Shown piece after piece: positions 564-9,542 of a stretch of 12,807 bases of DNA. The stretch is from the UHGV virus genome UHGV-1674620; one strand, 5' to 3'. Each line of letters starts with the position of its first letter. Position 1 is the first letter of the stretch. The DNA is from a virus. The position numbers and the translations under genes are program-made. Under the pieces are notes generated by a model, which worked only from the letters and a program-made list of their open reading frames with translations, was not told where the DNA came from and searched no databases.

Positions 564-1181
564 TCAATTATCTTCCAGGCCGGATGCTATCAACGAAAGC
601 CTCTCAAAAAACGCTGTAGCAGCCTTGTCCAAAGTTGAATAAGTACTGTATTCTCCGTGTTCGGGACCAACCACTACCCATGGTCGTCTTTTTGGGATTC
701 GGGACTTCTCAGAAATCACTGTTCCAGATATACCAATATCAATTGTTACACCTGTTATTATTTTCTCTTCATCTCTTTCCCTGAACTCAATTGCCATAAA
801 TGCCGTTTTTTTTCGTTTCCCGTTTTTAAAAAAATCAAATAAAGCAAAGCGATGCTCATTAAAATCAACACCCCATCGTCCTTCAGGATAAAGGGCATGA
901 AAGTTGTCATTTACGCTCTGCATCGTCTCATAAGCTTTAACTTCTAAATCTCCATAGTGCATAGATATCGCGCAGGAGTCACTGGGTAACTGTATTTTCC
1001 CAAGATTGAAAACCTTTACTGCTCCAGAACTATGGCATCTTGCCCGCAATTTATCCCCATTTATACTAATCGGAGAAATATTCCTTAATGTTCCGGGCTG
1101 GCTCCCTCCTAAGTAAACGACTGTTAAAGATTGCTTATTTTCAATTGCATCAACTAATACATGCTCTACATTTTTATCCAT
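564..1181 (-). CDS. Hypothetical accessory (moron) protein, 205 aa from MDKNVEH; N-terminal region loosely resembles a WYL-type ligand-binding domain; AT-rich
   Basis: Track ORF 564..1208. The internal ATG at 1181 has GGGAGG 5 nt upstream, whereas the ATG at 1208 is preceded by CCTCC and no Shine-Dalgarno. Visibly lower GC than flanking phage genes. Lies directly downstream of the Q-like gene and has its own terminator. Segment VVYLGGSQPGTLRNISPISINGDKLRARC...AVKVFNLGKI recalls the WYL pattern Y..R.I.P...L.A.C...F.L..I (from memory, weak). Confidence 0.55.
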   Translation of the reverse strand: MDKNVEHVLVDAIENKQSLTVVYLGGSQPGTLRNISPISINGDKLRARCHSSGAVKVFNLGKIQLPSDSCAISMHYGDLEVKAYETMQSVNDNFHALYPEGRWGVDFNEHRFALFDFFKNGKRKKTAFMAIEFRERDEEKIITGVTIDIGISGTVISEKSRIPKRRPWVVVGPEHGEYSTYSTLDKAATAFFERLSLIASGLEDN

Positions 1182-1256
1182 AATAACCTCCCAATGAACA
1201 GGTATCATCAGGAGGTTATAATAAAATATGATTATTTACTTTGATTGAATTTATTA

Positions 1257-1628
1257 CTATATGTAACAATCAATTTCTAAAGATACCCCCAACATTGCCA
1301 GACAACCGTCAATAAACCCTTCAGCTTTCTGCAGTCTGATAACAACCTGATTAAGTGATATCCCCAGTTTTACCCCCAACACCCGTAATGTAACCCCATA
1401 CACATAATACATTTCCAGTAATTCGTATTGATACGGTTCCTTTTTCTTAAGAACTGTCATCGCAGAGCTAATGATCAAGCCATCGTCATCGCTACATTGC
1501 GGGCGGGATTTTACTTTCGAAGGAATTAATCCCTTAAAACCTGCAGCAACAGATGACCATTCCACATCCTCGTGATTATTTGCCACCCATGCCCCCCAAC
1601 GTTCAAGAACCATTTGAATATCACGCAT
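1257..1628 (-). CDS. Phage late-gene antiterminator Q (Q-like, short approx. 123-aa form resembling DLP12 QuuD)
   Basis: N-terminal MRDIQMVLERWGAWVANNHEDV...AAGFKGLI...KVKSRPQC matches my memory of short Q antiterminators of E. coli defective prophages. ATG at 1628 has GGAGA 6 nt upstream; the track start at 1643 is a TTG. Position after the nin-like genes is as expected. Confidence 0.75.
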   Translation of the reverse strand: MRDIQMVLERWGAWVANNHEDVEWSSVAAGFKGLIPSKVKSRPQCSDDDGLIISSAMTVLKKKEPYQYELLEMYYVYGVTLRVLGVKLGISLNQVVIRLQKAEGFIDGCLAMLGVSLEIDCYI

Positions 1629-1645
1629 CAACTTTCTCCACAAAA

Positions 1646-2641
1646 TCAGGCCAGCACGCCTATTGCCAGCGCACGATCGATAAAACGAAATATCAGCTCC
1701 AGCTGGGAGCCATACTTCTCTTCAAATGCCACGGTATCCGCATGCAGCTCGTCGTGATGCTTTCTGCACAAAGGCAGCACGAAGAGGTCATGCGCTTTTG
1801 TACCCATTCCCCCCTGACCGTGGCCTATCAGGTGGTGGGGATCATCAGCAGGCTTTCCACAACATGCACACGGCTGCGTCTTAACCCAGCGCGTGTACTT
1901 TTCGTTAACCCAGCGGCGACGTTTTGGGCGTAACATAAAAGACTCCGGCGACTCCGGATCCACTTTCAGCGCCAGCACCTTTTTCGCTTTATTCTGGATG
2001 ATGCTGGTGGCCGGAACCGAAGGCACAAGGTCACTCTCCCGGGTGACAGACGGCACAACAGGCTTCGGTAATCTCAGTGCCTTACGGGCTGCACTTTCCG
2101 GTAAGGCATCCGCCAGATCATTACGAACCAGCCACCAGCACAGTTCCGGCATTGTCACAACGTGACTGTCATCAAAACCGAGATCCCGACGCACAACAGA
2201 CAACACCCAGCGGGCACAGTTATCCGTTGCCATTGATTCCAGCCGTTCCGTGAACTGATCGCGCAGCTGGTTATCGCAGTGCCAGCACAGACGGATTGCG
2301 CCCGGCGCGTGTCGCATTGTGGTCATGTTCTCGCTGTGCCAGTCGGAATGAGGCCACTGGCAACCTTTTTCACGAAGTAACCAGCTTTCAAGACATTCCA
2401 CGCCACCAGCACGACGGATCACTGCCTCATTGCGGAACACGGCCCGAACGGCAGGATCATCCGCCAGCGGTTGTGATGCCGCCGGAACGGCACCACTGGC
2501 GAAAGATGAATAACGCTCCGGCTCAGGCTCCAGCAGGACACGCCCCTGCATAAACAGGGGCATCAGCTCTGAACCTGGCCTGAACAATACGATCCCCATA
2601 CGCGGGGCAATTTCAGGGGTCAGTAGTGCTCTCACAGTCAC
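1646..2641 (-). CDS. DUF968-type phage protein with C-terminal Cys/His (HNH or zinc-finger-like) motif
   Basis: C-terminal CACCGKPADDPHHLIGHGQGGMGTKAHDLFVLPLCRKHHDELH (C-x2-C, HH, C, HH-x3-H) as in nin-region DUF968 proteins of E. coli prophages (from memory). Start is GTG at 2641 or 2635; stop abuts the Q-like start. Confidence 0.65.
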   Translation of the reverse strand: MTVRALLTPEIAPRMGIVLFRPGSELMPLFMQGRVLLEPEPERYSSFASGAVPAASQPLADDPAVRAVFRNEAVIRRAGGVECLESWLLREKGCQWPHSDWHSENMTTMRHAPGAIRLCWHCDNQLRDQFTERLESMATDNCARWVLSVVRRDLGFDDSHVVTMPELCWWLVRNDLADALPESAARKALRLPKPVVPSVTRESDLVPSVPATSIIQNKAKKVLALKVDPESPESFMLRPKRRRWVNEKYTRWVKTQPCACCGKPADDPHHLIGHGQGGMGTKAHDLFVLPLCRKHHDELHADTVAFEEKYGSQLELIFRFIDRALAIGVLA

Positions 2642-2642
2642 C

Positions 2643-3458
2643 TCAATGAACGGTATCGAGCAGCTTTAACAGCTCAGGAAATCGGGATTCGAAGAAATGC
2701 GGCTGCGTCTCGCGCGGATTTGCAGGACTGGTGATGTTCTTGCCGAACATGCAGCCTTTCGCGGTCAGCGACCAGAATTTTTTGATGTTGTTAATCGCGG
2801 TACGGCTGTATCGTTCGCGTTGTTCAACGATCCCCAGCTTCGCCATCTGGTGATATGCCTGATTAGCCGTCAGGCGGATACCATACTGCTTCAGCAGTGC
2901 ACTCAGCGACAGCGTAGGGCGGCTTGAACCATCTGGCGCATCAGCAGGTGCATCAATGGCATAGATCGGCATAAGTTCAGGAAGACCAGCTACCTTTGAT
3001 AATTTCTGGTATGCACCAAGTTTCGAGGAGTTTGACAGATTTAGAGTCTTTGCTGCTGATTCAAGCAGAATGACCCCGGATTTAATTTTGTCGGATGTGG
3101 TTTCTTCTGGTGATGAATTATGAAGCGCATCAAAAGTACGTATCACTTTTAAGCTGAATGCCGGGCTGATCCACATTGCATATGCATAGACCAGCTCTTT
3201 ACAGACATACGTCCCACCATTGCGCCCCTGAATGGTGATGACAGGAATACTACGGGAATCTCCCGTAGTTTCTTCTTCCAATAATTCCACAAGAGCCTTC
3301 GTTTCAGGACGACGCATAAACTCGTGAACTTCCAGCGAACGGGAGGAGCGATTCTCACCAGCGGCAAGAAGAGCAGCTTTCTGAAGGTCGTTAAGACAGT
3401 AGTTAGATTCGAAGTACTGGCGCACAGAAACGCCATCAATTACAAGCAACTGATTCAT
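2643..3458 (-). CDS. KilA-N domain protein (antirepressor or regulator-like), about 271 aa
   Basis: N-terminal region contains GTYVCKELVYAYAMWISPAFSLKVI, the characteristic KilA-N signature (A.W.SP.F). ATG at 3458 has GGAG 6 nt upstream; the track start at 3470 is GTG. Confidence 0.7.
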   Translation of the reverse strand: MNQLLVIDGVSVRQYFESNYCLNDLQKAALLAAGENRSSRSLEVHEFMRRPETKALVELLEEETTGDSRSIPVITIQGRNGGTYVCKELVYAYAMWISPAFSLKVIRTFDALHNSSPEETTSDKIKSGVILLESAAKTLNLSNSSKLGAYQKLSKVAGLPELMPIYAIDAPADAPDGSSRPTLSLSALLKQYGIRLTANQAYHQMAKLGIVEQRERYSRTAINNIKKFWSLTAKGCMFGKNITSPANPRETQPHFFESRFPELLKLLDTVH

Positions 3459-3555
3459 TGGTTTCTCCACAAATTTTTATCCACGAGCGGGACTGCACTC
3501 CCTTTTCGTTGATGCAGGATGAACTTACTGCGATTTTTAATAGTTATCAAGGATA

Positions 3556-3575
3556 CACTGTTCATAAATACAGTA
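3556..3575. promoter_or_regulatory. Candidate LexA (SOS) box upstream of the KilA-N gene
   Basis: Plus strand cACTGTtcataaatACAGTa: perfect CTGT-N8-ACAG core with AT-rich centre and matching flanks, in the 150-bp intergenic spacer about 100 bp upstream of the KilA-N ATG. Adjacent minus-strand promoter-like hexamers are TTGATA (3550..3545), 17-bp spacer, TAAGTT (3527..3522). Confidence 0.55.
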
Positions 3576-3620
3576 TCTTTAACGAGGTAATACCCAAATT
3601 TAGGGTGTTGCTCAATTCCG

Positions 3621-4016
3621 TTACCGAGTTGCTAATTTGCAACTCGCTTTTTCGTACTTACTGATAGTGATCTCGACCTTCCCTTCCGGGATAACCGGTC
3701 CCCACTCCACCAGCATTCTTTTCACCTGGCTGTCGTCTTCCCACACACCCGCGTGGGTCAGGGCGTCAAACAGCGCCTTGTTATAGTTGTCCAGATCGCG
3801 GATCCGGTTATCCGGAGGAAACAACACGATCTCCACTGAAGCAGGTGCCGACGTTGGTTTCGGCAGACGACGTAACTGCTCAACTATTGCTGCACACGCC
3901 GCGCTCTGGAATTTTCGCCCCGCCGCGCTTATCAGGCTCTTACCAGCAAACGCCCCTTTGTTGGGGTGTCGCCAGTACGTGTTCACGCTGGGCGGAAAAG
4001 GCAGTATTAGCTTCAT
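3621..4016 (-). CDS. rusA: Crossover junction endodeoxyribonuclease RusA (Holliday junction resolvase)
   Basis: 131 aa; N-terminal MKLILPFPPSVNTYWRH and ...RDLDNYNKALFDALTHAGVWEDDSQV... match the RusA family (compare DLP12 RusA LPWPPSNNRYY...[27 protein letters not shown], from memory). Start overlaps the upstream stop by 4 nt. Confidence 0.85.
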   Translation of the reverse strand: MKLILPFPPSVNTYWRHPNKGAFAGKSLISAAGRKFQSAACAAIVEQLRRLPKPTSAPASVEIVLFPPDNRIRDLDNYNKALFDALTHAGVWEDDSQVKRMLVEWGPVIPEGKVEITISKYEKASCKLATR

Positions 4017-4666
4017 GCCACCATCTCCCTGACCAGTTTTTCCGCCTGCTGGCGAACCTGCGCCAGAAATGCCTCACCACATGCCTCAAGTTCATCGCGC
4101 CCGATGTAGCTGATTGCCGGTCCCTTCCAGGTCTTGTCGAAAACAGCAATAGCACCAGCGAAGAAAGCACCTGTTGGCACCTGCTTTTCGTCTTTCGGGA
4201 TAAACCAGGCAGGCAGTTCAAAACCAATACGCCCGCGAATAAAAGCAATATGATCTGCATCTTCCGGCCACCACACTTCGCTGGTGGCAGCTTTGATCAG
4301 GAAAACATAGCGCCCGCCTTTATCACGCATGGCAGTGGCATGCTTCATGATGTAACGCATGCCGGTGATGTATTGCCCCTCATGCTGACTGGCGCGGCTG
4401 TACGGGGGATTGCCAAAGGCAGCACCTTTAAGCTCCGCAAGACGTTCTGACCAGTCATGCGCCAGCGCGTTGTCTTCCGCCGTGTAATACGCGGCACATT
4501 TGGCGTTATCACCGTCAGTGAACAGATCCAGAACAAACGGACCAAACAAGGTGTTAATTCCCCAGAAAATGTTATCCGGCGTGCGCCACTGATCTCCCAC
4601 TTCCTTCAGTTCATGGGCTGGTTTATTCCGCAGTTCCACCAGCGCCTGGCAATATTTATTACTCAT
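4013..4666 (-). CDS. Phage DNA N6-adenine methyltransferase (Dam-family orphan methyltransferase)
   Basis: 217 aa with the catalytic (D/N)PPY motif in GAAFGNPPYS; size and position after the replication gene are typical of lambdoid orphan MTases. ATG at 4666 is preceded by GGGGG. Confidence 0.8.
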   Translation of the reverse strand: MSNKYCQALVELRNKPAHELKEVGDQWRTPDNIFWGINTLFGPFVLDLFTDGDNAKCAAYYTAEDNALAHDWSERLAELKGAAFGNPPYSRASQHEGQYITGMRYIMKHATAMRDKGGRYVFLIKAATSEVWWPEDADHIAFIRGRIGFELPAWFIPKDEKQVPTGAFFAGAIAVFDKTWKGPAISYIGRDELEACGEAFLAQVRQQAEKLVREMVA

Positions 4667-4758
4667 TAAGCCCCCACGTAAAAAGCATCCGCAATGTCTC
4701 CGGAAGTACAGCCAGGATGGGCTTCAATGAATTTCTGAACTTCATTCAAAAGACTCAT
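4666..4758 (-). CDS. 30-codon mini-ORF (MSLLNEVQKFIEAHPGCTSGDIADAFYVGA), translationally coupled on both sides
   Basis: Hand-translated, below the ORF-track threshold. ATG at 4758 lies 2 nt after the TGA of the O-like gene and has AGGGGGTGA upstream; its TAA stop (4668..4666) overlaps the methyltransferase ATG as TAATG. Confidence 0.3.
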   Translation of the reverse strand: MSLLNEVQKFIEAHPGCTSGDIADAFYVGA

Positions 4759-4760
4759 GA

Positions 4761-5744
4761 TCACCCCCTGAATCCTGCCGGAATCTGGCTGTAGTCCACG
4801 TTGTCGTAACTGGCTTTGAAGTACGGGTCCTCGCGTCTGGCTGCAGATACCGCAGGAACTTCCCAGGATTCTTCGAAATGACGATCCGGACCAAAGAACG
4901 TCGACGCCTGCTTCACGAACTGGGTACCGGTATTTCCAGAGACACGCACCCAGGCGGCATAGCGTTTCACACCGTCGAGCATGGTTTCGGGTGTCACACC
5001 TTCCCTGATTCGGGCTTTCCAGGCTTTAAAAGCGGCGGATTTTGAATTACCACCAGCACGTTTGGGATATTCCTGCCAGACCTGTTCAAATTCCGGTGAA
5101 TATTCCTGTCGGGCAGAACGCGCTGGCGCAGACGCGTCAGCGGATGCATCAATAGTGTTTTTAGTCTCCGTTGTAATCTCTGTAGTAATCTCTGTATTTG
5201 TATCAACATTCGGCGTATCCCCTGTTCCGTTATGACGTCGGGGGGTGTTCCGTTTTAACGTAATAGCTGTATCGCTGATTGCATTATTGCTGTTACTTTC
5301 TGGCGAAACAGAAGAAGGTGTGGTGATGGCCGCAATTGCCTGTGGGTTGATCCCGACAAACAAAATATTGCTGCATTTCACCCCATCGAGCATTTCCACC
5401 GTGCGTAAATCCAGAGTAATAAACCCTGCATCGCGCAGACGCTTCAGCGCATCTGCGGTTTCCCTTTTCCCGAAACCAAACTGCTCAGCAAACGCCTGGT
5501 AGCTTCTTTGCAGTTTGTCGCCCTGAAAACGCTTGCGATATCCCAGCAACGCTCCGGTGTGCTCATCCCTGACCTCTGTCGGGCGGTACCAGTAAACGAT
5601 CTCTGAAAGCAGAGCGATAGCCGTCGCATCCGGACGCCCACTGGGTAGTCGAATATATTTCCACCAGGTCGCAGGTGTAACATTGCCGGAAATATTAATT
5701 TGACCAATAGCCATAACTTCCGGTGTGGGGGCGTAACGGCTCAT
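4761..5744 (-). CDS. Putative phage replication initiation protein (O-like organiser) with low-complexity central linker
   Basis: 327 aa; winged-helix-like N-terminal region (...KRETADALKRLRDAGFITLD), a central S/T/N/D-rich linker including TEITTEITTE, and a C-terminal ...FEQVWQEYPKR...AFKAWKARIREGV... region. Sits where O lies in lambdoid phages. ATG is preceded by AAGGAGG and overlaps the upstream stop as ATGA. Family assignment is tentative. Confidence 0.55.
   Translation of the reverse strand: MSRYAPTPEVMAIGQINISGNVTPATWWKYIRLPSGRPDATAIALLSEIVYWYRPTEVRDEHTGALLGYRKRFQGDKLQRSYQAFAEQFGFGKRETADALKRLRDAGFITLDLRTVEMLDGVKCSNILFVGINPQAIAAITTPSSVSPESNSNNAISDTAITLKRNTPRRHNGTGDTPNVDTNTEITTEITTETKNTIDASADASAPARSARQEYSPEFEQVWQEYPKRAGGNSKSAAFKAWKARIREGVTPETMLDGVKRYAAWVRVSGNTGTQFVKQASTFFGPDRHFEESWEVPAVSAARREDPYFKASYDNVDYSQIPAGFRG
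5161..5196. repeat. Tandem 12-bp direct repeats (iteron-like) inside the O-like gene; candidate replication origin
   Basis: GTAATCTCTGTA at 5173..5184 and again at 5185..5196, preceded by a degenerate copy TTAGTCTCCGTT (5161..5172). A further pair of 15-mers, TGTTCCGTT(A/T)T(G/A)ACG, lies at 5223..5237 and 5246..5260. Confidence 0.4.
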
Positions 5745-6040
5745 ACAACCTCCTTCCGCAGCATGAGAATTGTGTAGCCACGCGCAGGTTGTAGTCTGGC
5801 TTTTGCATCAATAGTAAGCGTTGCAATTTTTCGGATATGAAGATAACCAGCTCTTTCCAGTGCCAGGGTTTCCCTGAATATCGCTTGCTTAGAACAACAG
5901 CAGAAATCAGCAAGCACCTGATGATCAATAACTCTCTCGCCTTCACCGTCTGAAGAACCCGACATCAAAACACGCAACATAATCAGGCGCTGAATCGGGT
6001 TATCGAAAGCACATCCGCACACAAACTGAAAACAGTTCAC
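5741..6040 (-). CDS. Hypothetical phage protein, 99 aa, possible winged-helix fold
   Basis: Track ORF; GTG start at 6040 is preceded by GGGAGG 6 nt upstream; its stop overlaps the O-like ATG (ATGA). Segment SKQAIFRETLALERAGYLHIRKI looks helix-turn-helix-like. Confidence 0.45.
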   Translation of the reverse strand: MNCFQFVCGCAFDNPIQRLIMLRVLMSGSSDGEGERVIDHQVLADFCCCSKQAIFRETLALERAGYLHIRKIATLTIDAKARLQPARGYTILMLRKEVV

Positions 6041-6261
6041 GCCACACCTCCCAGACGCTTAAACATTTTTCCGGAGCAAAAGGCTATAAGCGGCATACTG
6101 ATGCGGTAATTACGGCCCAGCGGTTCACAAATCACCTTCTGACATTCACGGTCAACCAGGCTGACACGTAGAACATGCCCTGCAGGCGTGGTGTACCACT
6201 GACCAGGACGAGGACAACGGAAAGTCTGATTGGTAAACCGTTTGAAAATATTCCGGATCAT
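6037..6261 (-). CDS. Hypothetical phage protein, 74 aa, four Cys
   Basis: Track ORF; ATG at 6261 overlaps the Rha-ORF stop (ATGA) and is preceded by a G-rich Shine-Dalgarno; its stop overlaps the next gene's GTG. Confidence 0.4.
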   Translation of the reverse strand: MIRNIFKRFTNQTFRCPRPGQWYTTPAGHVLRVSLVDRECQKVICEPLGRNYRISMPLIAFCSGKMFKRLGGVA

Positions 6262-7406
6262 TTGCGCCCCCTTACCTCTGAAGGGTTCAGCGACAAATTT
6301 ATGAGACTGGCCAGTAGCGCCGCGTCGTTGATGCGGTCATACAGACTTACAGCCAGCGGTGATTCGGCTTTTGCCAACATGGGATAAAGCTGCTGCAGCC
6401 AGACCTGATGAATTGATGAAATGTAGGAATAGAGAACGCTGGCGTTATGTGCAACGTCGCTCAGTACAGAGGGATTTGAAAGCTGTTTCTCCATCTGGTT
6501 AAAGGCATTGATGTATGCCTCTTTGAACTGGGCAGCACGTTTACCCGTGAAACCCATAGCAAGAAACGCAAAGCCGTCGCGGGTTATTTGATAGCAAGGT
6601 AGTTTGCGGCCTGTGCAATCGGTGTAATCACTCACCGAAAAATTGCGGGAAGTGAATGATGCAGAGCATTCAAGCGTGCGGATCTTTTTCAGTACATCGT
6701 CATGACGTTTGGAGAAGAAGTTGGCAACAGCCAGGGATGAAGTAACAGCCTGACCATCAACGATGGCAATTTCAGGTTGAGTGAGGGTTGGGATCGTAGC
6801 CATGATGGCAGCCTCCGTTGACTGTGGAAAACTTCCACCACCGGAGCTGCGAAACTCACTGGTGGCAGACTGAACAGGGTTCGCAGTACCGGCGTCAACG
6901 GAGACCGGCGAGCCTTTCGGCTCCCCTGCCCAGCCCACCATAATTCTGGCGTGCGTGAGCGCGGACGATAAAAAAGACGCTGGCGCGTCATATATCGCCG
7001 TTGACAATTCCGGGCTGCGACCCCCGGCACCCGCTTTATAAGGTGCCTGAGCAGTGTAACGTCCCGGAATTGCAGAATCAATATGCTGGTGGTCCTTCAC
7101 ACTCAACAAAATCACGCCTGAATTTCCACAAAGGACTAAAGCACTCATGCGGGTAGTCTTTGCGAAGATAGATAACGCGCTGTGTTTCTGGCTCCCAACG
7201 AATAACATGAACATAAAGTCCTCTTCCGTCACGAAACCAGCGGTTAAGTTCCTGCACAACTCGCCCCCCACAGTCAGGTAAAGTTCTCTGTGGTTACTTA
7301 CAGCCAGGTGATTTGGTAATCTGCATTCATGCCGTAACAACAGGTGTTCAGCGACGCTGACCACCAGCTGTTGCGACAAACGGTTATTTGCCGTTAAACT
7401 ATTCAT
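6258..7406 (-). CDS. Rha-family phage regulatory protein; the Rha domain is the C-terminal 181 aa (internal start at 6803), preceded by about 200 in-frame codons of unknown function
   Basis: MATIPTLTQPEIAIVDGQAVTSSLAVANFFSKRHDDVLKKIRTLEC is the characteristic Rha N-terminal signature (TSL.VA..F.KRHD.VL..I). The ATG at 6803 has GGAGG 8 nt upstream. The frame stays open upstream to an ATG at 7406 that overlaps the cII-like stop (ATGA). Confidence 0.6.
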   Translation of the reverse strand: MNSLTANNRLSQQLVVSVAEHLLLRHECRLPNHLAVSNHRELYLTVGGELCRNLTAGFVTEEDFMFMLFVGSQKHSALSIFAKTTRMSALVLCGNSGVILLSVKDHQHIDSAIPGRYTAQAPYKAGAGGRSPELSTAIYDAPASFLSSALTHARIMVGWAGEPKGSPVSVDAGTANPVQSATSEFRSSGGGSFPQSTEAAIMATIPTLTQPEIAIVDGQAVTSSLAVANFFSKRHDDVLKKIRTLECSASFTSRNFSVSDYTDCTGRKLPCYQITRDGFAFLAMGFTGKRAAQFKEAYINAFNQMEKQLSNPSVLSDVAHNASVLYSYISSIHQVWLQQLYPMLAKAESPLAVSLYDRINDAALLASLINLSLNPSEVRGRK

Positions 7407-7960
7407 GCGTTAGTTTCTCCACAACCAGAAGCAATCGACGCCACGACGCCCGGAGCTGCACACTCGCGGGCGTTACTATTTTCTGGAGCGCAGAAGATTT
7501 TGTAGACCAGTGCTGCATGCTCCTGGAGCTTCGAAATTGAGAGGTACAGCTCGTCGTTAATTGCTGTCTTCTCATGCGGTTCCACTACACCGTCTTCGAT
7601 TGCTGAACGAATCTGTCTGGAATAACTGCCGATCTGTTCAATGACTTCCAGCAGACGCTGGTTAATATCGGCGTTGTCCACATCCTCGACGTCAGGAAGA
7701 GACACAAAGACGCCATTTGCAGACTGCGCCACAGCGTCAGCAATGAAGTGAGTTCCACCAGCACGTTGTAAAATCATTGCCCATCCCAGCGGGAAAATCT
7801 GATCGCCATCGGCACGAAGGCGATTGAATAAAGCGTTCTCTGTTACATCCAGCCACTCAGCAGCTTCAGCGTAACCCCCCGGCAATGCCGCGATAGTTTT
7901 TCTGACAGCTTTCACGTACCACTCAGGTTGTTTTTCCACTTTCCAATGATGCTTACCCAC
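7403..7960 (-). CDS. CII-like phage regulatory protein (CP76-type), 185 aa
   Basis: Immediately downstream of cro, overlapping it by 8 nt; GTG start with AGGAGG 6 nt upstream. Weak resemblance by memory to the phage regulatory protein CII (CP76) family, which occupies this position in E. coli prophages. Confidence 0.5.
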   Translation of the reverse strand: MGKHHWKVEKQPEWYVKAVRKTIAALPGGYAEAAEWLDVTENALFNRLRADGDQIFPLGWAMILQRAGGTHFIADAVAQSANGVFVSLPDVEDVDNADINQRLLEVIEQIGSYSRQIRSAIEDGVVEPHEKTAINDELYLSISKLQEHAALVYKIFCAPENSNARECAAPGVVASIASGCGETNA

Positions 7961-8213
7961 GGCTTACCTCCTGTTCCTGTGGTTTAAACCCATTCTGGTT
8001 TTGGCTAGATTGAAAACGTGCCGGATAAAGAATCTGCATTTCGCTGATTTCACCCTTAAAAAAATTGGCCAGACGTTCTGCAAGGTCGATAGATGGAATT
8101 TGTTCCAGTCTTTCAATACGACTCAGCGTCGCTGGATTGACCTGAACGCCCGCAGCAACATGCTGCAAAGTAAATCCGTGCGCCTTACGCACATTCCGTA
8201 ATGGTGATTGCAT
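7953..8213 (-). CDS. Cro-like HTH repressor
   Basis: 86 aa with helix-turn-helix GFTLQHVAAGVQVNPATLSRIE; divergently transcribed from the cI-like gene across a 97-bp operator region; GGAGG upstream of the ATG. Confidence 0.75.
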   Translation of the reverse strand: MQSPLRNVRKAHGFTLQHVAAGVQVNPATLSRIERLEQIPSIDLAERLANFFKGEISEMQILYPARFQSSQNQNGFKPQEQEVSRG

Positions 8214-8310
8214 ATAACCTCCACATATTGCGTGATGAGCATATTATTTCACGCAAATATTTTGCGCAAGTTGATTTGCTTAACGCGCAATAAAGAAATG
8301 TAATAAACGC
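8214..8310. promoter_or_regulatory. Immunity operator/promoter region (OR-like) with divergent PR and PRM candidates
   Basis: Minus-strand PR candidate: -35 TTGCGC (plus 8264..8269), 17-bp spacer, -10 TAATAT (plus 8241..8246), then a leader with GGAGG. Plus-strand PRM candidate: -35 TTGCTT (8276..8281), 17-bp spacer, -10 TGTAAT (8299..8304), which would start transcription at or near the cI ATG (no Shine-Dalgarno upstream of cI). Dyad elements: TTGCTTAACGCGCAA (8276..8290), palindrome TTGCGCAA (8262..8269), TTGCGTGATGAGCAT (8228..8242). Confidence 0.55.
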
Positions 8311-9003
8311 ATGAACATAGGAAATCGAGTCAGACAACTTCGCCAGGCGAAGAACATGAAAATCGCCGATCTCGCTGAAGCAATAGGAGTGGATGCGGCG
8401 AATATCTCGCGCCTCGAAACAGGTAAGCAGAAACAATTCACTGAACAAGCCCTGAGTAATATTGCCAGGAGCTTAGGTGTTGATATTGCTGATCTCTTTA
8501 CCTCAGACCTCAAAAGTAATACTGTATGTAAAAACAGTATTAGTGAGGATGTTGCGCAGGTGAAGGATGTATTCCGTATTGAAATGCTGGATGTCAGTGC
8601 CAGTGCGGGAAATGGCCTTATCCAGGGCGGTGATGTCATTGATGTGATTCATGCCATTGAATACAGAACTGATAATGCTGTATCGATGTTTGGTGGACGA
8701 CCAGCAAATCACATTAAAGTTATCAACGTTCGTGGGGACAGTATGTGTCCAACCATTGAGCCAGGAGATCTCATCTTCGTTGATATCAGTATCAATCAGT
8801 TTGATGGGGATGGTATATATGTATTTGGTTTTGATGATAAAATTTACGTCAAACGACTGCAAATGATACCTGATAAACTGCTGGTAATTTCTGATAATCA
8901 GATTTACCGCGAATGGGGAATTACCAGCGAAAACGAACATCGGTTTATGGTCTTTGGAAAGGTCTTAATCAGTCAGTCACAAACCCTTAAGCGACACAAT
9001 TAA
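8311..9003 (+). CDS. CI-like prophage repressor (N-terminal XRE-type HTH, C-terminal S24 LexA-like autopeptidase domain)
   Basis: 230 aa; HTH MKIADLAEAIGVDAANISRLETGKQ; S24 motifs VRGDSMCPTIEPGDLIFVD (Ser) and IYVKRLQ (Lys), with a candidate Ala-Gly cleavage site in DVSASAGNG; divergent from cro. Confidence 0.9.
   Translation: MNIGNRVRQLRQAKNMKIADLAEAIGVDAANISRLETGKQKQFTEQALSNIARSLGVDIADLFTSDLKSNTVCKNSISEDVAQVKDVFRIEMLDVSASAGNGLIQGGDVIDVIHAIEYRTDNAVSMFGGRPANHIKVINVRGDSMCPTIEPGDLIFVDISINQFDGDGIYVFGFDDKIYVKRLQMIPDKLLVISDNQIYREWGITSENEHRFMVFGKVLISQSQTLKRHN
8520..8539. promoter_or_regulatory. Candidate LexA (SOS) box inside the cI coding sequence (linker between HTH and S24 domains)
   Basis: TACTGTATGTAAAAACAGTA: 20-mer with perfect TACTGT-N8-ACAGTA architecture (12 fixed positions matching the consensus TACTGT(AT)4ACAGTA); encodes NTVCKNS of CI. 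Confidence 0.45.
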
Positions 9004-9024
9004 CCCCCTACCTCAACATCAATT

Positions 9025-9046
9025 AGCCACCAGAAGGTGGCTTTTC
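9025..9046 (+). terminator. Putative terminator after cI
   Basis: AGCCACC-AGAA-GGTGGCT hairpin (7-bp stem) followed by TTTT, beginning 22 nt after the cI stop. Confidence 0.4.
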
Positions 9047-9059
9047 ATTACCCACCAAA

Positions 9060-9098
9060 TTGCATATCTCGCAATAAAAACACTTGCATAATGCGCAA
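9060..9098 (+). promoter_or_regulatory. OL-like operator pair, possible PL region
   Basis: Two 15-bp dyads with the same architecture as the OR element: TTGCATATCTCGCAA (9060..9074) and TTGCATAATGCGCAA (9084..9098), centres 24 bp apart. -10-like CATAAT at 9087..9092; no clean -35 at 17-bp spacing. Confidence 0.4.
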
Positions 9099-9542
9099 CT
9101 TCATTTTATCTTTCTTTCCAGACCTACAAACAAGGTACTAACAAAATTTGGTTGTAACACGGCGTATGGCACATGCGTCGTTAGCGGTCTGGGGACGTTA
9201 AAGGGGACAATCCACTCCTTGCTCGGGCAAACAAACCAGGTAGCCGGAATGTGCAAGTCAATGAGGATGCTGATAAGACGCCTAACCAGCGTGGCGATTC
9301 GGTTTGACGCCTGGGAAGAGACCAGGACGCAACGATGAGAGCATTTATGGAGCCGCGACAAAGTGTGGTGCCGTAACTGGCTAAGTGCTCTCAGCGTTGT
9401 GGTGAATGCGCAGGCTGATGCGCGAAAGACATTGCAGCTATTGCGGAAAAGAGCTGTTCGGCGGGGCAATTAAACGCCCGTGAGAGTCTGAAATAACCGC
9501 AAGCCGGAGATCAGCACCGGTCACCACAACAGCCACTGCTTT

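What the first reader, a model, noticed from the sequence alone, without database searches (positions are those of the whole stretch)
5161..5260. Iteron-like direct repeats inside the O-like gene mark a probable replication origin
Tandem 12-mers GTAATCTCTGTA (two exact copies plus a degenerate third) and a pair of 15-mers TGTTCCGTTnTnACG lie within the linker-coding part of the O-like gene, followed by a more AT-rich stretch. This mirrors lambda, where the ori iterons sit inside O. The repeats also generate the TEITTEITTE protein repeat.
Basis: partly seen in the sequence, partly recalled or inferred. Interest (0 to 1): 0.45.

Follow-up and report, generated by a model that had tools for sequence, protein, structure and literature searches.

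The report
Replication origin inside phage initiator gene
The repeats are real and very probably form the replication origin of an E. coli prophage, embedded in the gene of its own initiator protein as in phage lambda. One repeat, a 12-base unit, is kept letter for letter in related phage genes from many bacterial phyla.

Summary
The interpretation, an origin inside the initiator gene, is supported by comparison with related sequences but not by experiment.

The gene (window 4761-5744, minus strand, 327 aa) has a winged-helix N-domain, a disordered linker (aa 145-212) and a helical C-domain. The repeats lie in the linker and are two different elements:
- **Iterons.** Their core is ACGTYnnAACGK, an imperfect palindrome.
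- **12-mer array.** TACAGAGATTAC occurs twice exactly plus one degenerate copy (5161-5196). An 8-nt spacer separates it from the last iteron, and it sits on the least stable DNA of the gene.

Homologues chosen by N-domain protein alone, from many phyla, keep both elements. 66 of 70 carry the 12-mer in frame. Upstream repeats have a 21-23 bp period in 64 of 66 genes.

Codon use shows selection on the DNA, not the peptide: Thr ACA 71/72, Glu GAG 55/57, Ile ATT 36/36. In 47 close relatives the origin core has 1 of 38 variable third positions, against 62/144 and 49/83 in the flanking domains.

It works like lambda ori/O, P22 gene 18, SPP1 oriL/G38P and probably TP901-1 ORF13, but the protein has no Pfam match to lambda O. 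The origin is a new member of a known kind. I found no published description of the conserved 12-mer.

The parts
4761..5744 (-). Replication initiator gene (327 aa), whose product is a 'replisome organizer' type protein
   Evidence: ORF. Matches phrog_270 'replication initiation protein' at E 3.6e-77. No Pfam or NCBIfam match. RefSeq names close homologues 'replication protein'.
5313..5744 (-). Coding region for the N-terminal winged-helix domain (aa 1-144), the presumed iteron-binding part
   Evidence: AlphaFold2 pLDDT of about 73-94 over 10-residue blocks, with a helix/strand pattern typical of a winged helix. Foldseek gives only weak matches to generic winged-helix proteins, DnaD-NTD among them. 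Homologues at 41-54% identity occur in Geobacillus, Acinetobacter and Bacillus phages. Same superfamily as the N-domains of other genes that carry the 12-mer (hhalign 96.6%, E 6.7e-10).
5109..5312 (-). Coding region for the disordered interdomain linker (aa 145-212), which holds the origin
   Evidence: pLDDT below 50 over aa 145-212. Only 6 of 68 third codon positions vary here, against 62/144 in the N-domain and 49/83 in the C-domain, among 47 unique relatives.
5250..5272 (-). Iteron 1 (sense strand ATACAGCTATTACGTTAAAACGG; core TACGTTAAAACGGA)
   Evidence: In register with the 22-bp iterons AAYASSSSYTACGTTGAAACGT of Serratia, Yersinia, Xenorhabdus and Providencia relatives.
5227..5249 (-). 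Iteron 2 (sense strand AACACCCCCCGACGTCATAACGG; core GACGTCATAACGGA)
   Evidence: Its core lies 23 bp from the core of iteron 1.
5205..5226 (-).
   Evidence: By my own count it matches the relatives' 22-mer consensus at 16 of 22 positions, in the same register. Its core lies 22 bp from the core of iteron 2.
5197..5204 (-). Conserved 8-nt spacer GATACAAA between the last iteron and the 12-mer array
   Evidence: The family consensus gAGACAAA directly precedes the first 12-mer, with information content of 0.6-2.0 bits per position.
5161..5196 (-). 12-mer array: TACAGAGATTAC twice, then the degenerate AACGGAGACTAA. It encodes TEITTEITTET. Proposed DNA unwinding and helicase entry element.
   Evidence: Lies within the least stable 50-nt stretch of the gene, 5152-5201. 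Unit conserved in 66 of 70 homologues chosen by protein. Synonymous codons are fixed. Copy number is 1-4 in close relatives.
4851..5108 (-). Coding region for the helical C-terminal domain (aa 213-298), the presumed interface with helicase or loader
   Evidence: pLDDT of about 77-95 over 10-residue blocks. Shares about 86% nucleotide identity with the replication genes of SfV, cdtI, mEp460 and Stx phages, which have a different N-domain and different repeats. Matches PHROG families labelled 'DnaD-like helicase loader' and 'primosomal protein'.
4764..4850 (-). Coding region for the disordered C-terminal tail (aa 299-327), which is replaced by a different tail in many relatives
   Evidence: pLDDT below 50. 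Most relatives match the window gene only up to gene nt 885. L002, the one such relative whose annotation I inspected, is followed by DnaC-like ATPase and DnaB helicase genes. The window has no such genes.

Best explanation
Window 5161-5272 is the vegetative replication origin of a lambdoid-type E. coli prophage. It is embedded in the linker-coding part of its own initiator gene.

**Proposed mechanism** (only the layout in step 1 and the DNA instability in step 2 are shown by data; everything else is inferred):
1. The winged-helix N-domain of the encoded protein binds, probably as dimers, to three iterons spaced 22-23 bp apart, about two helical turns. Each iteron has an imperfect palindromic core, ACGTYnnAACGK. 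The layout is shown; the binding is inferred.
2. The resulting nucleoprotein complex strains the DNA and melts the neighbouring element. That element is an 8-bp spacer followed by tandem TACAGAGATTAC units, which sit on the least stable DNA of the gene. The instability is shown; the melting is inferred.
3. The 12-mer sequence is read specifically, most likely as single or double strand by a conserved surface of this initiator superfamily. The parallels are the DUE 13-mers of plasmid RK2 and the DnaA-trios of oriC. This step is inferred.
4. The C-terminal domain then recruits the replicative helicase. In this phage that would be the host DnaB/DnaC, because no phage helicase or loader gene lies in the window. 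This step is inferred.

Because the array period is 12 nt, exactly 4 codons, slippage changes the copy number without breaking the reading frame. The TEITTEITTE peptide is a by-product of the DNA element.
For: **Anatomy.** The repeats lie in a disordered linker between two folded domains. Two iterons exceed every codon-shuffle control. The third is in register with the four-iteron arrays of relatives. The 12-mer array coincides with the least stable 50 nt of the gene, about 3 sd above the gene mean.

**Comparison with homologues chosen by protein alone.** The scan used N-domain peptide patterns only.
- 66 of 70 unique full-length genes carry at least one in-frame unit within 2 mismatches of the 12-mer. 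Hosts include Enterobacterales, Bacillota, Cyanobacteria, Chloroflexota, Rickettsiales and Armatimonadota, and gene GC ranges from 0.30 to 0.63. My own estimate of the chance expectation is about 0.04 per kb.
- The 100 nt upstream of the array shows its best self-match at lag 22 (49 of 66 genes), 23 (12) or 21 (3). 77% of these windows exceed the 95th percentile of control windows (Mann-Whitney p = 7e-30).

**Selection acts on nucleotides.** Iteron periods of 22-23 bp shift the reading frame from one copy to the next. In 12-mer units defined at the protein level, Thr is ACA in 71 of 72 cases (39% elsewhere in the same genes) and Glu is GAG in 55 of 57 (41% elsewhere). Lys is AAG 13/13, Ile ATT 36/36 and Asn AAT 23/23. 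Meanwhile the peptide varies sharply through single-base changes, E/K at one position and I/N/T/S/V at another.

**Close relatives.** The origin core (aa 158-195) has 1 of 38 variable third positions, against 62/144 in the N-domain and 49/83 in the C-domain (Fisher p = 2e-7 and 4e-11 for the whole linker).

**The 12-mer occurs only in this setting.** All 120 returned IMG/VR matches to the double 12-mer lie in frame; apart from a few ORFs cut short, they sit in the middle of 240-480 aa ORFs. In the 51 non-redundant genes inspected, most have family-specific repeats of about 20-24 bp just upstream.

**Precedents.**
- Lambda ori lies within O (PMC3349717; PMC5043065).
- SPP1 oriL is embedded in gene 38, with iterons plus a DUE, and a 356-bp fragment is sufficient in vitro (PMC5737612).
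- The P22 origin is annotated within gene 18.
- DUE repeats are sequence-specific in RK2 (PMC10797057; PMC5043065).
Against: - No experiment was possible: no replication, binding or melting data exist for this element or, as far as I could find, for any member of its N-domain family.
- The window's iteron array is weaker than its relatives'. It has 3 units, one of them degenerate, against 4 good ones. Its self-match of 0.40 at lag 23 falls below the control 95th percentile of 0.428, so the origin could be weak or decaying.
- The drop in variation could partly reflect a recently exchanged mosaic segment rather than purifying selection.
- The role of the 12-mers as the unwinding element rests on position, instability and analogy. 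Their binding partner is unknown.
- Copy number of 1-5 is tolerated, unlike the strict need for all four 13-mers in RK2.
Confidence: 0.75

Rival explanations
1. The origin is a relic. The element descends from a functional origin, but in this prophage lineage it is decaying or only weakly active, having lost one iteron and degraded another. It would no longer drive efficient replication.
For: Relatives in Serratia, Yersinia, Xenorhabdus and Providencia have four well-matched 22-bp iterons. The window has two good ones and one weak one. Its periodicity score lies below the control 95th percentile. No helicase or loader gene is present in the window.
Against: The same three-iteron arrangement is almost invariant in 47 unique genes from 82 related loci and is far more conserved than the flanking coding sequence, which argues for continuing constraint. 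The gene is intact in 219 complete E. coli genomes (at least 80% coverage). SfV-type phages with the same C-domain also lack helicase genes.
Confidence: 0.12
2. The 12-mer array is not an unwinding element. It is a conserved recombination linker, or an RNA-level signal in the mRNA. The iterons, together with generic AT-richness, would make up the whole origin.
For: The mosaic junction with the SfV-type C-domain lies just downstream of the array, at about window 5156. N- and C-domains are shuffled freely among genes that carry the 12-mer. The element is always transcribed as part of the mRNA.
Against: Second-order selection for the ability to exchange modules is unlikely to hold 10 of 12 positions fixed across genes with GC from 0.30 to 0.63. 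The spacing to the last iteron is fixed at 8 nt. The array coincides with the stability minimum. The SfV-type family has its own, different conserved 12-bp tandem repeat at the same place, so the element tracks the N-domain superfamily and not the junction. There is no Rfam match.
Confidence: 0.1
3. The repeats have no function in the DNA. They are slippage products and low-complexity sequence in a tolerant, disordered protein linker, and any conservation reflects a peptide motif (TTExTT).
For: The 12-mer is in frame and encodes a repetitive Thr/Glu peptide in a disordered linker. Copy number varies as in a minisatellite.
Against: The iterons have a 22-23 bp period, so successive copies are read in different frames. 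Synonymous positions of the 12-mer are almost fixed, while the encoded residues change between E and K and among I, N and T. A disordered linker should evolve fastest, yet here it is the least variable part of the gene, including at third positions.
Confidence: 0.03
4. The repeats are operator-like sites for autoregulation or copy control by the initiator, and replication starts at a different site.
For: In plasmids, iterons also serve in autoregulation and copy control (PMC10797057). In SPP1 the organizer binds a second site, oriR (PMC5737612).
Against: The sites lie mid-gene, about 470 nt from the start codon, and are not at a promoter; the promoter scan found nothing there. The window holds no second cluster of either motif. 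The adjacent unstable repeat array is the signature of an origin.
Confidence: 0.05

Closest known systems
Phage lambda ori within gene O (and the P22 origin within gene 18)
   Same: The origin lies inside the initiator gene, in the part between the DNA-binding N-domain and the C-domain that recruits the helicase. It has an array of initiator-specific repeats with internal dyad symmetry at roughly two-turn spacing. Next to these, on the downstream side in the direction of transcription, lies an unstable A+T-rich element (PMC3349717; PMC5043065). In P22 the A+T-rich part is itself a short tandem repeat, ACAAAAGACAATAT twice. The gene sits in the early operon downstream of cro/cII-like genes.
   Different: The protein has no Pfam Phage_rep_O match. 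There are three iterons of 22-23 bp rather than four 18-19 bp ones. No P-like loader gene follows. The lambda A+T-rich region shows no significant similarity to the 12-mer consensus. Here the unstable element is a sequence-conserved 12-mer shared across phyla.
Bacillus phage SPP1 oriL within gene 38 (replisome organizer G38P)
   Same: The origin is embedded in the organizer gene. Repeats bound by the organizer lie next to an A+T-rich DUE, and the protein is a two-domain, non-AAA+ initiator. A 356-bp fragment is necessary and sufficient in vitro (PMC5737612; sequence). Six of the 37 scanned genes that carry the 12-mer have the same C-domain family as G38P, PF09524.
   Different: The SPP1 repeats are about 11-mers (GACACGAAAAA) and its DUE has other short repeats; no TACAGAGAnTAC is present. 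The window protein matches neither PF09681 nor PF09524. SPP1 encodes its own loader and helicase.
Lactococcus phage TP901-1 ORF13 (rep), annotated 'replication protein, experimental'
   Same: Mid-gene direct repeats (TTTTCCAGATGTGG twice) are followed by an A/T-rich stretch encoding an N/T/K-rich peptide, ahead of a DnaD-like C-domain.
   Different: The N-domain is different, the repeat has a 15-bp period, and there is no conserved 12-mer.
Iteron plasmids (RK2 oriV/TrfA, F/RepE, R6K/pi) and oriC DnaA-trio or 13-mer DUEs
   Same: Winged-helix initiators bind about 22-bp iterons next to a DUE made of short repeats. The sequence of those repeats matters, and the initiator binds them in a strand-specific way (PMC10797057; PMC5043065).
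   Different: Plasmid Rep proteins bind iterons as monomers, and their origins lie outside the rep gene. The window protein has no Rep_3 match. The units here are 12 nt, in frame and coding.
SfV, mEp460 and Stx-phage type replication gene (HTH_36 N-domain)
   Same: The C-domain is the same (about 86% nucleotide identity) and so is the layout: variable iterons followed by a conserved 12-bp tandem repeat in the linker.
   Different: The N-domain, the iterons (GGTAGTGCAGGAGATTCAC-like) and the 12-mer (GAACCAGTCAAn, peptide EPVKEPVNEP) are all different.

Membership tests
Origins embedded in the initiator gene (lambda ori/O type layout) | The repeats lie inside the initiator ORF, in the segment between the DNA-binding domain and the recruitment domain | tested here: met
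   The repeats cover aa 158-195, within the disordered linker aa 145-212, between folded domains 1-144 and 213-298.
Origins embedded in the initiator gene (lambda ori/O type layout) | Three or more direct repeats at about two-helical-turn spacing with internal dyad symmetry | tested here: met
   Three units with cores 23 and 22 bp apart and an imperfectly palindromic core ACGTYnnAACGK. Relatives have four units with the perfect core TACGTTnnAACGTA. The third unit in the window is weak.
Origins embedded in the initiator gene (lambda ori/O type layout) | An adjacent A+T-rich, easily melted region on the downstream side | tested here: met
   5152-5201 is the least stable 50-nt stretch of the gene (-58.8 against a mean of -71.8 kcal/mol, sd 4.2). 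GC is 0.367.
Origins embedded in the initiator gene (lambda ori/O type layout) | The initiator binds the repeats and the fragment supports initiator-dependent replication | not testable with these tools
   Needs EMSA or footprinting and a suicide-vector replication assay.
Lambda O protein family (Pfam PF04492 Phage_rep_O) | Sequence match to the O N-terminal domain | tested here: not met
   No Pfam family at E <= 0.01. There are only weak matches to PHROG families labelled 'O-like' (phrog_391 at 2e-8, phrog_678 at 1e-4), against phrog_270 at 4e-77.
SPP1 G38P replisome organizer (PF09681 N-domain, PF09524 C-domain) | Match to either domain model | tested here: not met
   No Pfam match. Some other genes that carry the 12-mer do have PF09524.
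DnaD/DnaB_2 family (PF07261) | A DDBH2-type C-terminal domain | tested here: inconclusive
   No Pfam match. The C-domain does match PHROG families annotated 'DnaD-like helicase loader' (phrog_1701, 2.5e-38) and 'primosomal protein'. Foldseek matches concern only the N-domain winged helix.
Phage initiators with a winged-helix N-domain carrying a conserved Tyr-Trp (YW) motif and a TACAGAGAnTAC array (group defined here) | N-domain homologous to alignments A2 and A5 (motif LSEIVYW / LSQxxYW) | tested here: met
   41-68% identity to members across phyla. hhalign of A2 against an independent alignment of other 12-mer carriers gives 96.6% probability, E 6.7e-10.
Phage initiators with a winged-helix N-domain carrying a conserved Tyr-Trp (YW) motif and a TACAGAGAnTAC array (group defined here) | Iterons of 21-23 bp, then the spacer gAGACAAA, then in-frame TACA[G/A]AGAnTAC units | tested here: met
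   The window has iterons at 5205-5272, the spacer GATACAAA at 5197-5204 and the units at 5161-5196.
Iteron plasmid Rep proteins (PF01051 Rep_3) | A WH1-WH2 Rep fold or sequence match, with the origin outside the rep gene | tested here: not met
   No Pfam match. There is one winged-helix domain plus an unrelated helical C-domain. The origin lies inside the gene.

The most novel reading that the evidence does not exclude
The tandem 12-mer TACA[G/A]AGAnTAC, with its fixed 8-nt spacer, is a previously undescribed, sequence-specific core origin element. It is shared by a very large superfamily of phage and prophage winged-helix initiators in at least eight bacterial phyla. In this reading it is the defined site of first melting and helicase entry. 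It would be read by a conserved surface of the initiator, marked by the invariant Tyr-Trp motif, rather than by a host factor, while the neighbouring iterons supply replicon specificity. A parallel initiator family (SfV type) uses a different conserved 12-bp repeat, GAACCAGTCAAn. This suggests a general rule for phage origins: variable iterons plus a short-repeat element specific to the initiator superfamily. The 12-mer would then pinpoint the origin in thousands of uncharacterised phages.
Probability: 0.4. Interest if true: 0.65.

Novelty: new member of a known kind. Interest (0 to 1): 0.5.

Why it matters
For this prophage the result is ordinary but useful. It locates the origin and assigns roles to the parts of an unannotated 'hypothetical/replication protein' gene that is present, at 80% coverage or more, in 219 of the 5,426 complete E. 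coli genomes.

The wider point is that coding sequence here is under stronger selection as DNA than as protein. One 12-base unit is conserved letter for letter in initiator genes from hosts with GC content between 30% and 63%. If it is the unwinding or helicase-entry element, three things follow:
- It is a one-line sequence signature for predicting origins in a large fraction of temperate phages.
- It gives a tractable system for asking how initiators that are not AAA+ proteins open DNA.
- It warns against synonymous recoding of phage genomes in this region.

Tried and rejected
- **Homology between the lambda A+T-rich region and the 12-mer.** Local alignment of the 12-mer consensus against gene O found only a chance 11-mer at the gene start and nothing at ori. 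Rejected.
- **A known RNA family at the repeats.** The Rfam scan in E-value mode over 4000-9200 found nothing in 5100-5300.
- **A promoter or terminator inside the origin.** None beyond chance.
- **Second copies of either motif in the window, such as a second origin or operators.** None.
- **First genome-contig scan with exact peptides of the window protein.** No confirmed relative. The scan with the N-domain alignment worked.
- **Solved structures by sequence.** Only marginal GntR-type helix-turn-helix matches for the N-domain profile, and none for the full protein. Foldseek against the PDB gave only generic winged-helix matches at E >= 0.005, so no structural family could be assigned.
- **Pfam on 37 diverse genes that carry the 12-mer.** Largely unannotated; the only recurring families were PF09524 in 6 and HNH in 2.
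- **Literature.** I searched for the 12-mer, the peptide and the concept and found no description of the conserved 12-mer. The main review of phage replication modules (Weigel and Seitz 2006) is not held in the library, so prior description cannot be excluded.
- **A peptide-level explanation of the 12-mer.** Rejected by the codon test.
Full report
**1. What is there**

The finding lies in a 327-aa ORF on the minus strand, window 4761-5744. On the plus strand, GTAATCTCTGTA is exact at 5173-5184 and 5185-5196. A degenerate copy, matching 8 of 12 bases, sits at 5161-5172. A 16-mer pair at 5223-5238 and 5246-5261 shares 14 of 16 bases at a spacing of 23. Both features exceed chance. With up to 2 mismatches the window holds 4 matches to the 12-mer against 0.69 expected, and 0 of 200 shuffles reached 4. 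No codon-shuffled version of the gene gave a 16-nt direct match better than 13 of 16, in 300 shuffles.

**2. The gene and its setting**

The window is an E. coli lambdoid-type prophage. On the minus strand the order is:
- a cro-like gene (the cI-like repressor is divergent, on the plus strand)
- a YmfL/CII-like gene
- Ash/Rha
- two small ORFs
- this gene
- Dam, RusA, KilA-N and DUF968

At 80% coverage or more, the gene is present in 219 of 5,426 complete E. coli genomes.

The protein has no Pfam or NCBIfam match. It matches phrog_270 'replication initiation protein' at E 3.6e-77, and RefSeq names close homologues 'replication protein'. An AlphaFold2 model built from 29 sequences gives four parts:
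- a confident N-domain, aa 1-144, with a winged-helix pattern
- a disordered linker, aa 145-212
- a confident helical C-domain, aa 213-298
- a disordered tail, aa 299-327

Foldseek returns only generic winged-helix matches, the DnaD N-domain among them, at E >= 0.005. The repeats encode aa 158-195, so they lie inside the linker.

The C-domain DNA (window 4700-5155) is about 86% identical to the replication genes of SfV, cdtI, mEp460 and several Stx phages. That similarity stops at the edge of the repeats. No helicase or loader gene is in the window. Some relatives with a different C-terminal tail are followed by DnaC-like and DnaB genes.

**3. Two different elements, not one**

Homologues of the N-domain alone (41-54% identity) occur in phages of Geobacillus, Acinetobacter and Bacillus. 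All four that I examined have the same layout straight after the N-domain coding part. First come 3-4 direct repeats with a 22-23 bp period, whose sequence differs from phage to phage. Then come tandem units of TACA[G/A]AGAnTAC, the same 12-mer as in the window.

In Enterobacterales relatives the iterons are four copies of AAYASSSSYTACGTTGAAACGT, with the palindromic core TACGTTnnAACGTA. Read in that register on the sense strand, the window contains:

| Element | Window coordinates | Sense-strand sequence |
|---|---|---|
| Iteron 1 | 5250-5272 | core TACGTTAAAACGGA |
| Iteron 2 | 5227-5249 | core GACGTCATAACGGA |
| Iteron 3 (degenerate) | 5205-5226 | AACAGGGGATACGCCGAATGTT |
| Spacer | 5197-5204 | GATACAAA |
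| 12-mer array | 5161-5196 | TACAGAGATTAC x2, then AACGGAGACTAA |

The 12-mers are a separate element.

**4. A test on homologues chosen without regard to the repeats**

I scanned one genome per species with peptide patterns from an N-domain alignment only. This returned 80 loci. Hosts include Enterobacterales, Bacillota (many Lachnospiraceae), Cyanobacteria, Chloroflexota, Atribacterota, Armatimonadota, Thermodesulfobacteriota and Rickettsiales.

- Of 70 unique full-length genes (GC 0.30-0.63), 66 carry at least one in-frame unit within 2 mismatches of the 12-mer, at gene nt about 480-700. My own estimate of the chance expectation is about 0.04 per kb.
- The unit consensus is T-A-C-A-[G/A]-A-G-A-n-T-A-C, preceded by a conserved gAGACAAA. 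Copy number is 1-5, most often 2.
- The 100 nt upstream of the array has its best self-match at lag 22 in 49 of 66 genes, lag 23 in 12 and lag 21 in 3. Of these windows, 77% exceed the 95th percentile of control windows from the same genes (Mann-Whitney p = 7e-30).
- The window's own score, 0.40 at lag 23, is below that percentile (0.428). This reflects its smaller and partly degenerate iteron set.

**5. The constraint is on the DNA**

- A period of 22 or 23 bp is not a multiple of three, so successive iterons are read in different frames. They cannot be a peptide repeat.
- For 12-mer units defined purely at the protein level (T-[EKQD]-x-T in tandem; 33 genes, 72 units), synonymous sites are almost fixed:

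| Residue in the unit | Codon use in the unit | Use elsewhere in the same genes |
|---|---|---|
| First Thr | ACA 71/72 | ACA 39% |
| Glu | GAG 55/57 | GAG 41% |
| Lys | AAG 13/13 | not counted |
| Ile | ATT 36/36 | not counted |
| Asn | AAT 23/23 | not counted |
| Last Thr | ACT 41, ACA 28, ACG 3, ACC 0 | not compared |

- The peptide itself changes sharply through single-base changes: E or K at one position, and I, N, T, S or V at another. At 40-68% N-domain identity, synonymous sites should be saturated.
- Among 47 unique genes from 82 close relatives, variable third positions number 62/144 in the N-domain, 6/68 in the linker and 49/83 in the C-domain. In the origin core (aa 158-195) the figure is 1/38. 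Fisher tests of the linker against the N-domain and the C-domain give p = 2e-7 and 4e-11. A disordered linker would normally be the fastest-evolving part of a protein.
- The one frequent change is the copy number of the exact 12-mer: one copy in 1 locus, two in 69, three in 11 and four in 1. Because 12 nt is four codons, this slippage keeps the reading frame.

**6. How widespread the 12-mer is, and what it travels with**

Every match is in the T-E-x-T frame. Apart from a few ORFs cut short, the matches sit in the middle of 240-480 aa ORFs. These reduce to 51 genes at 60% identity or less, with GC 0.30-0.62. Most have their own iteron-like repeats of about 20-24 bp just upstream.

Many of their N-domains are not detectable by BLAST from the window. 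A profile comparison against an alignment that excludes the window's family nevertheless gives 96.6% probability, E 6.7e-10, aligned on the LSEIVYW / LSQxxYW motif and the helix-turn-helix. PHROGs label them replication initiation, O-like or DnaD-like proteins. Their C-domains vary.

The SfV-type gene shares the window's C-domain but has an HTH_36 N-domain, different iterons and a different conserved 12-bp tandem repeat, GAACCAGTCAAn, at the same position. The short repeat therefore tracks the N-domain superfamily. It does not track the C-domain or the host. This favours recognition by the initiator itself.

**7. Physical property**

The least stable 50-nt stretch of the gene is 5152-5201, which is the 12-mer array plus its 3' flank. 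Its duplex energy is -58.8 kcal/mol, against a gene mean of -71.8 with sd 4.2.

**8. Most likely mechanism**

What is shown:
- the layout of the elements
- selection at the DNA level
- the instability of the array
- conservation across phyla

What is inferred:
- The N-domain binds the iterons as dimers, as lambda O does on its inverted-repeat iterons (PMC5043065).
- The adjacent 12-mer array melts and is captured in a sequence-specific way. The parallels are the RK2 13-mers with TrfA and the DnaA-trios (PMC10797057; PMC5043065).
- The C-domain recruits the host DnaB/DnaC.

The nearest precedents are these:
- Lambda ori lies within O and has four 18-bp iterons plus a 38-bp A+T-rich segment (PMC3349717).
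- The P22 origin is annotated within gene 18.
- SPP1 oriL is embedded in gene 38, and a 356-bp fragment is sufficient in vitro (PMC5737612).
- TP901-1 ORF13 has the same layout.

**9. Membership and novelty**

The element works like a lambda-type origin, but its protein is not a member of the Phage_rep_O, Phage_rep_org_N/Phg_2220_C or Rep_3 families. As an origin it is a new member of a known kind.

I found no description of the cross-phylum, nucleotide-level conservation of the 12-mer in the searchable literature. The key subscription review could not be read, so prior description cannot be excluded.

**10. Caveats**

- There is no functional data.
- The window's iteron array is weaker than its relatives'.
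- The drop in variation could be sharpened by mosaic exchange.
- The codon statistics ignore shared ancestry, though the genes span many phyla.
- The role of the 12-mer as the unwinding element, and its binding partner, are inferences.

Noticed in passing
window 6858-6945 and 6970-7046 (minus strand): Rfam finds a C4 antisense RNA (RF01695, 78.8 bits, E 7e-15) and an isrK Hfq-binding RNA (RF01394, 58.7 bits, E 4e-11). Both lie inside the mechanical 382-aa ORF 6258-7406, which carries Ash and Rha Pfam matches. That ORF is probably not a single gene. It looks like a P1/P7-style RNA-controlled leader ahead of a Rha-type antirepressor.
   Followed up: no
L288 1562-2380 (SfV orf39, minus strand) and loci L292-L398: Replication genes of the SfV, mEp460 and Stx-phage type share the window's C-domain. 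Their N-domain is HTH_36, their iterons differ (GGTAGTGCAGGAGATTCAC-like), and they have their own conserved 12-bp tandem repeat, GAACCAGTCAAn (peptide EPVKEPVNEP), preceded by AGAACCAGTCACTCTTTT. In IMG/VR, six non-redundant initiator groups, each with different iterons, keep this repeat.
   Followed up: partly
window 4764-4860; L002 (NZ_OU342919) 613-3882: Many relatives match the window gene only up to gene nt 885 and then carry a different C-terminal tail. In L002 such a gene is followed by a DnaC-like ATPase gene and a DnaB helicase gene. The window variant is followed by Dam and has no helicase or loader. The tail may specify which helicase system is used.
   Followed up: partly
window 5741-6040 (minus strand): A 99-aa ORF whose end overlaps the start of the initiator gene. 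It matches only the N-terminal part (positions 3-93 of 223) of phrog_4617 'replication initiation protein'. It may be a truncated or accessory replication protein.
   Followed up: no
L291 820-985 (P22 gene 18 origin); L286 620-665 (lambda ori): In P22 the A+T-rich part next to the iterons is itself a short tandem repeat, ACAAAAGACAATAT twice. Lambda has the related ACAAAAGACAC...TACAAAAGA. Short tandem repeats next to iterons may be general in phage origins.
   Followed up: partly
window 8631-8660: A period-9 tandem repeat, TGATGTCAT 3.3 times, lies within the cI-like repressor ORF 8311-9003. Its function is unknown.
   Followed up: no
window 5260-5271 (minus strand): A near-copy of the 12-mer (TACAGCTATTAC, 2 mismatches) sits inside iteron 1. 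It is probably coincidental, but it misled an automatic anchoring step.
   Followed up: no
L206-L285, e.g. L228, L241, L266, L282: In many Lachnospiraceae homologues the array is reduced to about one unit (peptide ETNTENT...), followed by a recurring R/K-D-Y peptide. This may show the minimal form of the conserved element.
   Followed up: no
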